A DNA stretch of 64,000 nt from the human T2T-CHM13v2.0 reference genome, Homo sapiens, in assembly GCF_009914755.1 (NCBI RefSeq), contig NC_060944.1; one strand, 5' to 3'. Below are positions 25,538 through 57,629 of the stretch, one piece after another; the stretch's first letter is position 1; every line of letters starts with the position of its first letter. Both the position numbers and the translations under genes were made by a program. The notes under the pieces are model-generated. The model saw only the letters and a program-made list of their open reading frames with translations. It was not told the DNA's origin and made no database searches.

Positions 25538-25622
25538 ATGGCTGAGCCAGGGGTTCGCCGCCCCCGCCGCCGCCGCCGCCGCCGCCGCCGCCGCCGCCGC
25601 CCGCTTTCGGCTCGGGCCTCAG
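25538..25622 (+). CDS. Candidate spliced uORF, exon 1 part (completed by 57565-57572): MAEPGVRRP-R12-PLSARASGP*
   Basis: Strong Kozak context GGA-ATG-G (G at -3, G at +4). 85 nt in exon 1 plus GA CCG TAG in exon 2. Translation is not demonstrated. Confidence 0.55.
25564..25599 (+). repeat. (CCG)12 trinucleotide repeat in the 5'UTR exon
   Basis: 12 uninterrupted CCG units with imperfect CCG units on either side. Confidence 0.97.
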
Positions 25623-26778
25623 GTGAGTCGGAGGGGCCGGGCGCCCACCGAGCAGGGCTAATCCTGTGGCCGCCTGGGGTTTTCCCTGCGACCTGCGCCC
25701 GCGCCTCTGCCTGGCTTTGCTGTCCCGCGAGCCGGAGCATCCTCTGCCCTGCCTCCTAGGCATCCTTTGGTAGTCCGGACGGCCTTGCCCCTCCTTCCCC
25801 TGGCAGGGTCGCGGCCCGACCCCCAGACACGGCCACCTTGGGTCGCAGCCCACCTGGGGGCCCTGAGGCGGTGGTCAGGGCCCCAGTTTGGGAGGAGGGC
25901 GGGGAAGCGAGAGCCTGGGGTCCGAACCTCGGCGCTGTGCTGGGCTTGCTGTGTGACCTTGGGCAAGTCTTTTCACCTCCCTGGCCTTAGCTGACCTGTT
26001 TATTCAATGGGGTCCTAACACTTGCTGCTCAGAGTGGTAAAGATAATGAGAAGTGTATGTGAAAGTGCCCTAAATGGGGAGAGGGAGAATTCTTAGGGCA
26101 CCCTAGATGGGAGACCAAGAGGGCAGTTTGAAGTCTGAGCGAGTTAGAGACGTGGCATTTCCACTTAGTAACTGTGTGGCCCTGGGCAAGTTAATTTCTC
26201 TGAGTCTTCTTTTCCTTATCTGTGAAATGAGGTAATAGACTACTGTGGAAATCAGTGAGACTGGGTATGTCAAGTAGCTTGGCACATAGTAAGTGCTCAA
26301 CCAGCTATTATGAGGCGTCCAGGGTAGGAGGGCAAGACTTCCAGGAGGAGATGACTTTGGGACAGGTAAGGTGTAGGTGTGTAGAGTGCCAGCTCATATG
26401 GGTAGTCCTACTGCAATGCCAACCCCCAACCCCGGTTTTACTTCTCCATTCTGCTCAGAGCAAGGGAGGTACTTCTACAAGTAGTCCTGGGAAACTCTTT
26501 GAGGTCAACCCCTTGTAGATAGCTGGGGTCATGGTCTCATTTTCTACCTGGGCTTCGTTGACCCTTCCAGAAGAAAAAAGGCATCTTTGTGTCCTTTGGG
26601 AAGTGCTTAAAGCAGTAATAACTATTTACAAGCATATGATTAAGAAGCACTTTACCAGGCATATTATTTCATTTAATCTTTATGTAGACTTTGCCAGGTG
26701 CCTGGTGATGTCATCCTCATTTTGCCGATGAGGAAACTGAGGTTCAGAAAAGTAAAGGGAAGGATCTGCTTAAGAATC

Positions 26779-29700
26779 CTTTTTTTTTTTTTTTTTTTTT
26801 TTGAGACAGAGTCTTAGTCTGTTGCCCAGGCTGGAGTGCAGTGGCGTGATCTCAGCTCACTGCAACCTCCGCCTCGTGTGTTCAAGCGATTCTCCTGCCT
26901 CAGCCTCCCGAGTAGCTGGGACTACAGATGTTCACCACCTCGTCCACTAATTTTTGTAGTTTTAGTAGAGACAAGGTTTCACCATGTTGGCCTGGCTGGT
27001 CTCGAACTCCTGGCCTCAAGTGATATACCTGCCTCGGCCTCCCAAAGTGCTAGGATTACATGCGTGAGCCACCACACCCAGTCATTGCCTAAGAATCTTG
27101 TATCTATTAAGTGATGGAAGTGGACGTGTTTCTAGGTAAATCCTGTATTTTATCCCCCATTCACTGTTGCCTCTGATTTTGCAACAGTTGCTATTATAAG
27201 GCCACAGGGGTATTCTTTTGTTACTTTTAACTGGCTAGAAGTTAAAAGGCAAGGAAACAAGATCTCAGGTAAAGCTTTATTTAAATAGATACCACCCAAA
27301 GTGAGGATCTCAGAAAATAGTTGGACTCTTTTTTTTTTTTTTTGAGACGGAGTTTTGCTGTTGTTGCCCAGGCTGGAGTGCAATGGTGCCATCTCAGCTC
27401 ACTGCAACCTCCGCCTCCCTGGTTCAAGCAGTTCTCCTGCCTCAGCCTCCCAAGTAGCTGGGATTACAGGCATGTGCCACCATGCCCGGCTAATTTTGTA
27501 TTTTTAGTAGAGATGGGGTTTCTCCATGTTGGTCAGGCTGGTCTCAAACTCCCGACCTCAGGTGATCGCCTGCCTTGGCCTCCCAAAGGACTGGGATTAC
27601 AGGCATGAGCCACTGTGCCCAGCCTGAGAGCTGGAATCTTTAAAAGAGGGCTTCTCTGTCCCTCATTCCCTCCTCATTAAAATGAGGGGACTAGGCTAGA
27701 TTATACTGAAGGCCCTTTCAGTGCTGTTATGCAGTTGTGGTTAAAAGCTTGCAATCAGACTACCTGGACTAAAATCTTGGCTCTGCCACTTCCAAGCTGT
27801 GTGCTACTGAGCAAAGAGGTGCTACTTTACCTCTGAAATGATGCTCAGTACCTCTGAAATGATGAGAGGACTTTTTGGTAAGGGGCTCTGTGAGGAAGAA
27901 TTATTCATAGTTCATTTTGAACCCCTTGGTGGTATAGTTTCCTCATCTGTAAAATGGGGATAGTAATAGGCCTTATTACCTGTGGCCTTATTATCATGTA
28001 TGGCTGTTCTGAGGATTTATTTGAACTTAATATATGTGAAGTGCCCAGCATATTTGGTAAACATTAGCTATCGTTATTTGGGTTTAACGTGGTGCTTGTG
28101 CTGTATTTTCCGTGTATGGTTGGTGAAAGAATAAATTAAAGTATGTGATAATACCAGGTCCGTCAACCATAATGTCATTGCAAGCATGAAACAGTAGCCA
28201 TCATGGCATTATATAAATGTTGATATTTTTATACAGTTGCCCCAGGAACCTGTAATCATGTGCCACAATGGGTTGCAAAGAAAGGTAAAGCTGTCCAGGC
28301 ATGGTGGCTCACGGCTGTAATCCCAGCACTTTGGGAGGCCAAGACGGGTGGATCACGAGGTCAGGAGATCGAGACCATCCTGGCTAGCACAGTGAAACCC
28401 CATCTCTACTAAAAGAAAAAAAAAAATTAGCTGGGCATGGTGGCGGGCGCCTGTAGTCCCAGCTACTCGGGAGGCTGAGGCAGGAGAATGGCGTGAACCG
28501 GGGAGGTGGAACTTGCAGTGAGCCAAGATTGCGCCACTGCACTCCAGCCTGGGCGACAGAGCAAGACTCCGTCTCAAAAAAAAAAAAAAAAAAAAAAAAA
28601 GAAAGAAAGATGAAAGCTGATGGTAGGACGTTAGGTTTAGTAGCTCAACATCCAATTCAGTAAATATTTGCTAAATCCCCTTATGCTAGGCACATGGAGG
28701 ATGTGGAGGTCAATCCCATCTCCATATCCTTCGAGGAACTCAGAGCTTAATTTGCAAATTACTGCATTTGACATCTTTAAATGAATTCATATCTTATGTT
28801 TGCCTTGGCTGCAGAGTGAAGCCACTGATTCTAATCTGTTTTGTTGTGTCCCTAGACTTCTGTTAGGTGCCTGGATTAGAAACCTCAGATTGCTTCCTAA
28901 GCCTTTTCATCCATTAATTCGCAAGTCCCTGAGAAAGACCCCGTCTTATGTAACAGAGAGTAGCAATACTTGACAATAACAATAAGGTGCCTAATGGCTT
29001 ACAAAAATGCCTACACTTGCTTACACATGCTTTTACTCATTTAATCTTATCTGTGTCCCTTCAAGGAAGGTAAGGTGCAGATTAGGATCTCTGTTTTATA
29101 GTCGAGGAATCTGAATGGAAGCCAAGAAGCCATGATGCTATTGAGTGGCCCATTTCACGTTGAAATCCAGTCTTCTGTCTTCAAATTCAGTGTACTTACC
29201 ACTATCCTGCCCGGATTGTATTTATTCAGTATTTCCTGAGCACCTAGAATGTGTCAGTTCTGTTTTAGCCTGGAGATATCATGGTAGAAAGGTACAGAGT
29301 CCCTTGCTCTCATGCAGCTTATATTCTACTGGCAGCAAACAGAAAAATACAGCAGTAAATGAACAAGGGAATTTGGATGAGGAATAAGTGCTGGGGTGAA
29401 ATCCCATCTCTATTAAAAATACAAAACTTAGCTGGGTGTGGTGGCACGTGCCTGTAGTCCCAGCTATTCAGGAGGCTGAGGCACAAGAATTGCTTGAACC
29501 TGGGAAGCAGAGGCTGCAGTAAGCCGAGGTTGCGCCATTGCACTCCAGCCTGGGCAACAGAGCGAGACTCCATCTCAAAAAGAAAAAAAACCCAACAAAC
29601 AAAAAGAAAAAGAAAAGGCCTTGCTAGGATGGTGACGTTTTTGCTGAGATTTGCTCCCAGGGACGGGCCAGCCATTTGAAGACATGTCAGAAGGAAGAGC

Positions 29701-57100: not shown

Positions 57101-57280
57101 TCTCAAACACCTGTACTCAAGTGATCCTCTGGCTTCAGCCTCCTAAAATGCTGGGATTACAGATGTGAGCTACTGTGTACAGCCTAATTCACAAATTTTT
57201 TGGAGACAGGATCTTGCTGTGTTGCCCAAGCTGGTCTCAAACTCCTGGTCTCAAGGAATTTCCCTGCCTCGGCCTCCCAG
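51143..57280. mobile_element. Alu-dense block upstream of exon 2, with an antisense L1MC/MD-like 3' fragment at ~54905-55125 and (GA)n at ~52653-52679
   Basis: Alu motifs; L1 motifs tttttagagcagtttcaggttc.cagcaaaa and cattgacacattatcacccaaagt. Confidence 0.82.
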
Positions 57281-57564
57281 AGTGAGACCCAGACTTAAAA
57301 GATTTCCAGCTGCCTCAGCCTATAGCATAAGATCAGATATTGATTGAGAGGAGGATGGGCTAGCCAACAATACTGGTGGACTGCAGTTTTTTATTTTTAC
57401 CACTGAAGCTGGTTAAGATCCTGTGAGGAAATATACAGTGTAGTAAAGTTATCAGATATGGCTGTCAGGTTAGCAAGATGAAGACTATTTAGGTGTGTCA
57501 GCTTCTGTCAGGCAGGCTGCAATGACAACGGTACTGTGCTTGTTTACTTTTGCTTTTTCTCTAG

Positions 57565-57629
57565 GACCGTAGCATCCTGAGACATTTTGAATTGACACTT
57601 CTCAAGATTTGACTGGATCAGAGTTCATC
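57565..57629 (+). other. KIF3B: KIF3B 5'UTR part of exon 2
   Basis: Strong acceptor tgtttacttttgctttttctctag|GAC, 65 nt upstream of the ATG. Confidence 0.9.

What the first reader, a model, noticed from the sequence alone, without database searches (positions are those of the whole stretch)
25538..57572. Spliced, strong-Kozak uORF that reads the KIF3B 5'UTR CCG repeat as poly-arginine
Seen: the AUG at 25538 (G at -3, G at +4) has a better context than the main AUG (A at -3, T at +4). It reads ATG GCT GAG CCA GGG GTT CGC CGC CCC (CGC)12 CCG CTT TCG GCT CGG GCC TCA G, then splices across 31.9 kb to GA CCG TAG. The product is a 30-aa peptide, MAEPGVRRPRRRRRRRRRRRRPLSARASGP, which stops 57 nt before the KIF3B AUG. 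The genomic ORF track misses it because of the intron. Established: CGG/GGC repeats embedded in uORFs occur in FMR1 and NOTCH2NLC, where the product is polyglycine. Polybasic nascent chains can slow ribosomes, and oligo-Arg peptides act as nucleolar or cell-penetrating signals. Inference: repeat length changes keep the frame, so the repeat could tune stalling, reinitiation or NMD and thereby kinesin-2 dosage. An expansion would yield an AUG-initiated polyArg peptide.
Basis: partly seen in the sequence, partly recalled or inferred. Interest (0 to 1): 0.85.

Follow-up and report, generated by a model that had tools for sequence, protein, structure and literature searches.

The report
KIF3B leader uORF reading CCG repeat
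The main KIF3B messenger RNA does carry a short upstream reading frame that would translate its CCG repeat as twelve arginines, but nothing available here shows that it is translated, conserved or regulatory, so it is a well-formed candidate of a known kind, not a demonstrated mechanism.

Summary
In the RefSeq Select transcript NM_004798.4 the only AUG in the 180-nt leader is at 25538, 30 nt from the annotated start, with G at -3 and G at +4. It opens a 30-codon frame that reads (CGC)12 as arginine, crosses the 31,942-nt intron, and stops at TAG 57570-57572, 57 nt before the KIF3B AUG.

It is uncommon but not unique. I found 106 runs of at least 10 perfect CCG/CGG units in this genome. Fifty lie within 700 nt of a protein-coding gene start, and 3 of those 50 have an upstream AUG in the arginine frame: KIF3B, CHD3 and PTCHD1. 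Only KIF3B combines a purine at -3 with G at +4.

Composition alone gives an open arginine-frame AUG in 25% of shuffled leaders, and a strong-context one in 4.6%.

The proposed mechanism is weak. In HEK293T cells, runs of 20 arginine codons did not stall ribosomes.

Translation, start-site usage, conservation and repeat polymorphism could not be tested. No searched paper links KIF3B to a uORF, though the repeat itself is already listed.

Verdict: a new member of the known class of repeat-containing uORFs, of moderate interest.

The parts
25456..25507 (+). Two copies of a promoter-proximal direct repeat (23 nt, exact 16-nt core, period 29) ending one base before the annotated start site
   Evidence: One search finds copies at 25456-25478 and 25485-25507 (87% identical). 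One search finds the 16-nt core exactly twice in the window; 0 of 100 shuffles gave 2 matches. That the GGAAGT core resembles an ETS site is my recall, not a test.
25508..25622 (+). Exon 1 of KIF3B (RefSeq Select NM_004798.4), entirely 5' leader, 115 nt
   Evidence: Annotation read; sequence.
25538..25540 (+). Upstream AUG, 30 nt from the annotated 5' end, G at -3 and G at +4
   Evidence: It is the only AUG in the 180-nt leader.
25538..25622 (+). Exon-1 part of the uORF (28 codons plus the first base of codon 29)
   Evidence: codon list.
25556..25601 (+). CCG/CGC/GCC microsatellite; the perfect (CGC)12 core at 25565-25600 is read as Arg in the uORF frame
   Evidence: (TRF: period 3, 15.3 copies, 95% matches). 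It is one of 106 listed runs of at least 10 perfect units in the genome.
25623..25628 (+). Splice donor GTGAGT of the 31,942-nt leader intron
57565..57572 (+). Exon-2 end of the uORF: the last two bases of codon 29, codon 30, and the stop TAG at 57570-57572
   Evidence: The acceptor AG is at 57563-57564, after a pyrimidine tract.
57573..57629 (+). 57-nt spacer between the uORF stop and the KIF3B AUG; it holds a second stop in the same frame (TGA 57588-57590)
   Evidence: (frame 0 translation).
57630..57632 (+). KIF3B main start codon (A at -3, T at +4), in the same frame as the uORF but separated from it by two stops

Best explanation
This is an ordinary AUG-initiated uORF that happens to sit over a promoter-proximal CCG microsatellite.

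Shown: the mature reference mRNA has one upstream AUG, 30 nt from its annotated 5' end, with both key context positions filled. Its frame closes 57 nt before the KIF3B AUG.

Inferred: on mRNAs that start at or near 25508, most scanning 43S complexes initiate there. They make a 30-residue peptide with twelve arginines in a row (14 in all) and terminate just after the exon 1-2 junction. KIF3B synthesis then depends on leaky scanning plus reinitiation across a short spacer. The net effect is a constitutive, moderate damping of KIF3B translation and possibly some NMD exposure.

The arginine reading is most likely a by-product of which of the three repeat phases the AUG fell into. At 12 units it adds at most some slowing. 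The peptide itself is probably short-lived and without a function of its own.
For: - Anatomy.
- The transcript is the RefSeq Select model. My recall is that such 5' ends are set with CAGE data.
- The leader is not unusually structured. The 180-nt leader has MFE -70.4 kcal/mol, z = -0.27 against 200 shuffles. Exon 1 alone has z = +2.4, meaning it is less stable than shuffles. Scanning to the AUG is therefore plausible.
- All three frames through the repeat close before the main AUG, so the element can act only as a separate uORF.
- The stop lies far upstream of the exon 2-3 junction, which is the geometry NMD needs.
- Chance and census figures fit an incidental origin. An open Arg-frame AUG arises in 25% of shuffled leaders. 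Eighteen of 50 comparable repeat loci have some upstream in-frame AUG.
- Precedent for repeat-bearing upstream frames damping the main ORF at normal repeat lengths: FMR1 (passages).
Against: - There is no direct evidence of translation. Ribo-seq, CAGE and reads were not available, and supplementary tables that might list this uORF were closed.
- The predicted fold places the AUG inside a hairpin (nt 17-64 of the mRNA), which could favour or hinder recognition.
- CpG-island promoters often start transcription over a broad zone, so a share of mRNAs may begin at or after 25538.
- Two Gnomon models use other first exons that skip the uORF.
- KIF3B is broadly expressed (my recall), so any repression must be partial.
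- Conservation in other mammals could not be checked.
Confidence: 0.5

Rival explanations
1. One reading: the poly-arginine nascent chain (or its CGC codons) stalls or slows ribosomes in proportion to repeat length. The polymorphic repeat would then act as a rheostat for reinitiation or NMD and so for kinesin-2 dosage. An expansion would yield an AUG-driven toxic poly-arginine peptide.
For: - The frame is kept at any repeat length, and the AUG has a strong context.
- In the census KIF3B is the only one of 50 comparable loci with a purine -3 / G +4 AUG in the arginine frame.
- Lysine or arginine repeats slow elongation in a cell-free system (Lu and Deutsch 2008, as summarised).
- Arginine-rich GR/PR chains stall ribosomes in a length-dependent way (passages).
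- Long antisense-FMR1 poly-arginine relocates to the nucleolus (passages).
- The locus meets two of the three prerequisites listed for translated GGC repeats: it is on an mRNA, and it is in frame with an upstream ATG with a Kozak motif.
Against: - In HEK293T cells 20 consecutive CGG or CGA arginine codons were 'impervious to stalling', and only poly(A) triggered arrest. Twelve CGC codons are well below that.
- Arginine frames of CGG/GGC repeats gave negligible product in three loci and in FMR1, and a sense CCG expansion gave none.
- Large CCG expansions in a 5' UTR are known for silencing, not for toxic peptides (AFF2, Table 1 seen).
- I found no report of KIF3B repeat expansion or length-expression association. 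Supplements were not visible.
Confidence: 0.1
2. The uORF is largely silent in vivo. Transcription starts are dispersed, so many mRNAs begin at or beyond the AUG or too close to it. Alternatively, the GC-rich hairpin around it lets 43S complexes bypass it. The frame is then an accident of annotation with little effect.
For: - The exon lies in a small CpG island, with GC 0.68-0.78 over about 25400-25950.
- The leader before the AUG is only 30 nt.
- The AUG is paired within a predicted hairpin.
- Alternative first exons exist.
- The arrangement is not improbable by composition.
Against: - The RefSeq Select 5' end is 30 nt upstream. That is long enough for recognition by my recall of Kozak's leader-length work.
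- Two exact copies of a 16-nt element end right at the annotated start. This suggests a focused rather than a diffuse promoter, but that is inference.
Confidence: 0.25
3. The repeat matters at the DNA or RNA level and the reading frame is irrelevant. It would act as a promoter-proximal short tandem repeat affecting transcription, chromatin or methylation, or as a binding or structural element in the leader.
For: - RefSeq functional-element rows mark 25524-25683 and 25704-25883 as 'silencer / silent region', and 25360-25870 as an H3K4me1 hESC enhancer.
- The repeat lies 48-93 nt from the start site.
- A published in-silico study lists the KIF3B 5' UTR GCC/CGC repeat as a predicted piRNA/miRNA binding site (passages).
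Against: - The CCG run folds poorly; exon 1 is less stable than its shuffles, z = +2.4.
- The annotation rows are assay labels, not tests of the repeat itself.
- This reading does not exclude a translated uORF.
Confidence: 0.3

Closest known systems
uN2C, the AUG-initiated uORF of NOTCH2NLC that contains the GGC repeat (NIID)
   Same: A GC-rich trinucleotide repeat in a 5' leader lies in frame with an upstream AUG, so it is translated canonically and not by RAN (abstract; passages). In my census NOTCH2NLC appears with an AUG 15 nt upstream of the run.
   Different: That repeat reads as glycine on a CGG-sense mRNA, and its product and disease expansion are demonstrated. KIF3B reads arginine on a CCG-sense mRNA, and neither product nor expansion is known.
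FMR1 CGG repeat upstream frame (FMRpolyG) acting like a uORF on FMRP synthesis
   Same: A repeat-bearing upstream frame at normal repeat length damps the main ORF (passages). This is the mechanism class proposed here.
   Different: It starts at ACG, not AUG; it reads glycine; and it overlaps the main ORF. The FMR1 arginine frame gives 'modest to no translation'.
Small ORFs holding the GGC repeats of GIPC1, antisense RILPL1 and LOC642361 (OPDM/OPML)
   Same: The requirement for an in-frame upstream ATG or near-cognate codon with a Kozak motif is met by KIF3B.
   Different: In those loci only the glycine frame was translated, the alanine and arginine frames were negligible, and the sense CCG RILPL1 RNA gave no product.
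ASFMR1 antisense CCG repeat (ASFMRpolyP, ASFMRpolyR, ASFMRpolyA)
   Same: It has the same repeat orientation on the RNA (CCG) and the same three possible products: proline, arginine and alanine. Poly-arginine was detected in reporters and was nucleolar when long (passages).
   Different: There the AUG-initiated frame is proline, and arginine arises without a defined start and at expanded lengths. In KIF3B the AUG frame is arginine.
AFF2 (FRAXE) 5' UTR CCG repeat
   Same: It is a sense-strand CCG run close to the start of a gene. It is 20 nt from the gene start in my census, against 55 nt for KIF3B.
   Different: AFF2 has no upstream in-frame AUG in the stretch I read. Its known effect is loss of function on expansion to 200-900 units (Table 1).

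Membership tests
AUG-initiated upstream ORF of a 5' leader | An AUG upstream of the main start, inside the annotated mature leader | tested here: met
   AUG at mRNA nt 31 of a 180-nt leader in NM_004798.4.
AUG-initiated upstream ORF of a 5' leader | An in-frame stop that closes the frame before, or out of frame with, the main ORF | tested here: met
   TAG at 57570-57572, 57 nt before the main AUG.
AUG-initiated upstream ORF of a 5' leader | Ribosome initiation or occupancy on the frame | not testable with these tools
   No Ribo-seq data were available. KIF3B with 'uORF' gave 0 papers and with 'Ribo-seq' gave 0 papers. Supplements were closed.
AUG-initiated upstream ORF of a 5' leader | An effect on output of the main ORF | not testable with these tools
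   This needs reporters or edited cells.
Repeat-embedded small ORFs translating GC-rich triplet repeats (uN2C, uGIPC1, FMRpolyG) | A CGG/CCG-type repeat in a leader or 'non-coding' RNA, in frame with an upstream ATG or near-cognate codon with a Kozak motif | tested here: met
   the criterion is quoted.
Repeat-embedded small ORFs translating GC-rich triplet repeats (uN2C, uGIPC1, FMRpolyG) | The product is polyglycine | tested here: not met
   The frame reads CGC, which is arginine.
Repeat-embedded small ORFs translating GC-rich triplet repeats (uN2C, uGIPC1, FMRpolyG) | The encoded polypeptide is detected, and expansion is linked to disease | not testable with these tools
   No report was found in the main texts searched. 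At 30 residues the peptide falls short of the 'sufficient size to be stable' prerequisite.
RAN translation | Initiation without an AUG, dependent on an expanded repeat | tested here: not met
   A canonical AUG precedes a 12-unit, non-expanded run.
Peptide-dependent ribosome-arrest uORFs | The nascent peptide arrests the ribosome during elongation or termination | not testable with these tools
   Published HEK293T data argue against terminal arrest by up to 20 arginines. Slowing is not excluded.
Peptide-dependent ribosome-arrest uORFs | The peptide sequence is conserved across species | not testable with these tools
   No mammalian genomes were on hand. There is no retrocopy of KIF3B in the human genome to serve as an older snapshot.
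uORF-dependent NMD substrates | Termination more than about 50 nt upstream of a later exon junction | tested here: met
   The stop is at mRNA nt 121-123, and the exon 2-3 junction lies after nt 1584.
uORF-dependent NMD substrates | The transcript is stabilised when NMD is blocked | not testable with these tools
   KIF3B with 'nonsense-mediated' returned 30 papers; none of the 15 listed was relevant by title or abstract.

The most novel reading that the evidence does not exclude
KIF3B carries the only strong-context, AUG-driven poly-arginine upstream frame among the long CCG/CGG runs at human gene starts. Normal length variation of the run changes how long ribosomes dwell on the uORF, and so how many reinitiate at the kinesin-2 motor's start codon. 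This would make the repeat a heritable dial on ciliary and axonal transport capacity. A moderate expansion, below the methylation threshold, would produce an AUG-initiated nucleolar poly-arginine peptide. That would be a first 'polyR' counterpart of the polyG diseases.
Probability: 0.07. Interest if true: 0.75.

Novelty: new member of a known kind. Interest (0 to 1): 0.35.

Why it matters
KIF3B is an obligate subunit of heterotrimeric kinesin-2, needed for cilium assembly (abstract of the listed preprint 10.1101/409318), so its dosage plausibly matters. Repeat-bearing upstream frames are now a recognised route from 'non-coding' repeats to regulation (FMR1) and to disease (NOTCH2NLC, GIPC1).

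All demonstrated cases read glycine. An AUG-initiated arginine frame has not been shown to be used, and published reporters suggest arginine frames are poorly expressed.

The KIF3B leader is a clean natural test case. It has one AUG, one pure repeat, a defined stop and a short spacer.

The run also belongs to the small set of at least 10 perfect CCG/CGG units: 106 runs were listed in this genome. That set includes FMR1, AFF2, NOTCH2NLC, GIPC1, LRP12, ZNF713, CBL and AFF3. It is therefore a reasonable locus to include when repeat-expansion screens are read.

If it proves to be only a generic damping uORF, it is of routine interest.

Tried and rejected
Literature for a prior description.
- KIF3B + uORF: 0 papers.
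- KIF3B + 'CGG repeat': 3 papers, none about the locus.
- A six-term search was too broad. It found 4,382 papers; none of the 30 listed contained KIF3B.
- KIF3B + 'tandem repeat': 19 papers, none relevant by title or abstract.
- KIF3B + Ribo-seq: 0 papers.
- KIF3B + nonsense-mediated: 30 papers; none of the 15 listed was relevant.
- KIF3B + CCG as a whole word: 14 papers. One of them (PMC9141802) lists the 5' UTR repeat as a predicted small-RNA binding site, with no mention of a uORF.
- Ribo-seq ORF catalogues, uORF screens and STR-polymorphism tables sit mostly in supplements, which were closed. 'Not in print' therefore holds only for the main texts searched.

Conservation. No tool here holds other mammalian genomes. 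I looked for a processed pseudogene of KIF3B in the human genome as an older snapshot of the spliced leader. None exists: the 4 matches were the gene itself, KIF3C at 73% identity, and two 59-nt stretches on chr9.

Protein search of the peptide. I did not substitute the 73-aa unspliced reading, because it is not the product in question and the search is costly.

RNA structure as an explanation. I rejected it. The leader is no more stable than shuffles, and exon 1 is less stable. Rfam gives nothing in exon 1; the only hit is a sub-threshold 7SL/Alu-like match at 24800-24921.

The bacterial-type promoter and terminator scan is irrelevant to a human promoter and found nothing.

Corrections to my own notes.

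Limits of the census.
- It used only perfect runs of at least 10 units in this one assembly.
- Closed regions are not shown.
- It took the most upstream RefSeq gene start as the mRNA start.
- It read unspliced DNA without CDS annotation outside chr20, so many alanine, glycine and proline cases are probably main coding regions.
- Of the 106 runs, 56 were dropped before the count because they were not 0-700 nt downstream of a protein-coding gene start.

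
Full report
**What is there.**
The window holds the 5' end of KIF3B. RefSeq's Select transcript NM_004798.4 starts at 25508. Its first exon is 25508-25622, and it joins to exon 2 at 57565 across a 31,942-nt intron. 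The donor reads CAG|GTGAGT. The acceptor is a long pyrimidine tract followed by TCTAG|G.

I joined the two exons inside a script. The leader is 180 nt long, 67% G+C, and contains exactly one AUG, at mRNA nt 31, which is window 25538. That AUG has G at -3 and G at +4.

The frame runs through CGC CGC CCC (CGC)12. It leaves exon 1 after the first base of codon 29, takes eight bases of exon 2, and stops at TAG 57570-57572. The stop ends 57 nt before the KIF3B AUG at 57630, which has A at -3 and T at +4.

TRF describes the repeat as 25556-25601, period 3, 15.3 copies, 95% matches.

Two details add to the picture:
- The uORF is in the same frame as the KIF3B coding sequence, but TAG and a further TGA (57588-57590) separate them. 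The other two readings of the repeat (alanine, proline) also close before the main AUG. The element can therefore act only as a separate upstream frame, never as an N-terminal extension.
The unspliced reading 25538..25759 is listed as a 73-aa ORF with the same arginine run.

**Is it more than chance?**
I kept the repeat and shuffled the 56 nt in front of it with dinucleotides preserved. An AUG open to the repeat in the arginine frame appears in 25% of 20,000 shuffles. One with a purine at -3 and G at +4 appears in 4.6%. Composition alone makes the arrangement unremarkable.

For an empirical comparison I listed every run of at least 10 perfect CCG/CGG units in this assembly. There are 49 + 45 + 12 = 106 runs; closed regions are not shown.
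- Fifty gene-run pairs lie 0-700 nt downstream of a protein-coding gene's RefSeq start. Twenty are CCG on the sense strand and 30 are CGG.
- I fetched all 50 and read them unspliced from the gene start.
- Eighteen of 50 have at least one upstream AUG open to the repeat. By frame (two genes count under two frames): alanine in 11 genes, glycine in 4, proline in 3 and arginine in 3.
- The three arginine cases are KIF3B, CHD3 (AUG 374 nt upstream) and PTCHD1 (AUG 73 nt upstream).
- KIF3B is the only one of the three with both context positions filled, and its AUG lies closest to the run (26 nt).

The KIF3B frame is thus rare among comparable loci but not unique. The census has limits: one assembly, perfect runs only, the most upstream gene model taken as the mRNA start, and no exon or CDS annotation outside chr20. 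Many alanine, glycine and proline cases are probably ordinary coding regions.

**Surroundings.**
- Exon 1 sits in a small CpG island, with G+C 0.68-0.78 from about 25400 to 25950.
- Just upstream of the annotated start lie two copies of a 23-nt element. Its exact 16-nt core occurs at 25456 and 25485, and the second copy ends at 25507. A 65% third copy at 25537-25559 contains the upstream AUG, but that level of identity may be chance.
- RefSeq's functional-element rows call 25524-25683 and 25704-25883 'silencer / silent region' and 25360-25870 an H3K4me1 enhancer.
- No other gene is annotated in the window. The nearest neighbours are POFUT1 upstream and ASXL1 downstream.
- On the minus strand, mechanical ORFs also cross the repeat. 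One is an ATG-initiated 139-aa frame that again reads arginine, and one is a GTG frame that reads glycine. No antisense transcript is annotated.
- Rfam finds nothing in exon 1.
- Two Gnomon models use other first exons (25973-29733 and 49625-49802) and skip the uORF. They bring 68 and 3 upstream AUGs of their own.

**Structure.**
The spliced leader folds to -70.4 kcal/mol, no better than its shuffles (z = -0.27). Exon 1 alone is less stable than its shuffles (z = +2.4), because a CCG run pairs poorly with itself. The upstream AUG lies inside a predicted hairpin spanning nt 17-64. The repeat is therefore not a strong structural roadblock, and RNA structure is not the explanation.

**How it most likely works.**
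Shown: the frame exists in the reference mRNA.

Inferred:
- With a 30-nt leader and a good context, ribosomes that load on mRNAs starting near 25508 should mostly initiate at 25538.
- They would terminate eight bases into exon 2.
- They would reach the KIF3B AUG only by leaky scanning, or by reinitiation across 57 nt.

That is the behaviour of a generic repressive uORF. Its stop lies far upstream of later exon junctions, so the geometry also allows NMD. I put this at about 0.5.

The main alternatives are these:
- Dispersed start sites or bypass leave the frame largely unused (0.25).

The proposal is arginine-dependent stalling tuned by repeat length. It meets direct counter-evidence.
- In HEK293T reporters, (CGG)20 and (CGA)20 were 'impervious to stalling'. 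[quoted passage not shown] They allowed that polybasic stretches may slow translation (PMC5316413, passages).
- Cell-free work did show slowing by arginine or lysine runs (summarised in the opening of PMC8102910).
- Arginine-rich GR/PR chains stall in a length-dependent way (PMC11162809, passages).

Some slowing at 12 arginines is therefore possible but unproven.

Arginine frames of related repeats are also poorly expressed.
- FMR1 shows 'modest to no translation' in that frame (PMC8918734, passages).
- The arginine frames of GIPC1, antisense RILPL1 and LOC642361 were negligible, and the sense CCG RILPL1 RNA gave no product (PMC12987736, passages).
- Those frames lacked a good AUG, however, so they do not settle the KIF3B case.

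The claim that the upstream AUG has a 'better' context than the main one is not established, since both have a purine at -3. I give the rheostat model about 0.1.

**Comparison with what is known.**
The element works like the repeat-bearing upstream frames of NOTCH2NLC (AUG, glycine), FMR1 (ACG, glycine, damping FMRP at normal lengths) and GIPC1.

On the RNA it has the same repeat orientation as the antisense FMR1 transcript. There the AUG frame is proline, and arginine arises by RAN translation (PMC6010627, passages).

It meets the sequence criteria of a uORF and of a repeat-embedded small ORF. It fails the polyglycine criterion, and it is not RAN translation. The functional criteria of all these families (ribosome occupancy, effect on the main ORF, product detection, conservation) could not be tested here.

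**Novelty.**
The repeat itself is in print. PMC9141802 lists KIF3B among genes with GCC/CGC repeats in the 5' UTR, as predicted piRNA/miRNA sites (passages). I found no main-text mention of a KIF3B uORF, of its translation, or of a poly-arginine reading.

I class it as a new member of a known kind. Interest is moderate (0.35). It is a clean and rare natural test of whether an AUG-led arginine frame over a CCG run is used and matters, but at present it rests on sequence alone.

Noticed in passing
window 25456-25507 (and weakly 25537-25559): There are two copies of a 23-nt element with an exact 16-nt core, 29 nt apart, and the second ends one base before the annotated KIF3B start. Zero of 100 shuffles gave two matches to the core. 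A 65% third copy contains the upstream AUG. From recall only, the core holds a GGAAGT ETS-like motif next to a GTTGCT half-site like those of RFX factors, which would suit a ciliary gene.
   Followed up: partly
window 25321-25740 (-) and 25461-25853 (-): Two mechanical ORFs cross the same repeat on the opposite strand. One is an ATG-initiated 139-aa frame that also reads it as arginine, and the other is a GTG-initiated 130-aa frame that reads it as glycine. No antisense transcript is annotated here.
   Followed up: no
window 25524-25683, 25704-25883, 25264-25313, 25360-25870: RefSeq functional-element rows overlap exon 1. There are two 'silencer / silent region' entries covering the uORF and the start of the intron, an 'active region' upstream, and an H3K4me1 hESC enhancer.
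   Followed up: no
window 49625-49802 and 25973-29733: The alternative Gnomon first exons skip the arginine uORF but bring other upstream AUGs. The 243-nt leader has 3 (16-aa and 23-aa frames sharing one stop, and a 3-aa frame). The 3.8-kb leader has 68.
   Followed up: partly
L040 (PTCHD1, chrX) and L013 (CHD3, chr17): These are the only other arginine-frame upstream AUGs among the 50 repeat loci read. PTCHD1 has a 63-codon frame with two arginine runs, starting 73 nt before the repeat. CHD3 has a long frame over a run of about 29 units. Without exon or CDS annotation, I did not establish whether they lie in mature leaders.
   Followed up: partly
genome-wide census: The 106 listed runs of at least 10 perfect CCG/CGG units include many known expansion loci: FMR1, AFF2, NOTCH2NLC, GIPC1, LRP12, ZNF713, CBL, AFF3 and ZFHX3. 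Among the 50 near gene starts, arginine-frame AUGs (3 genes) are fewer than alanine-frame ones (11 genes). Many of the latter are probably main coding regions, so this is not evidence of selection.
   Followed up: partly
window 24800-24921 (-): There is a sub-threshold match to metazoan SRP RNA (31 bits against a gathering score of 70, model positions 1-120), as expected of an Alu-type element about 600 nt upstream of the promoter.
   Followed up: no
window 57588-57590: The uORF and the KIF3B coding sequence share one reading frame. They are kept apart by two stops, TAG 57570-57572 and TGA 57588-57590.
   Followed up: yes
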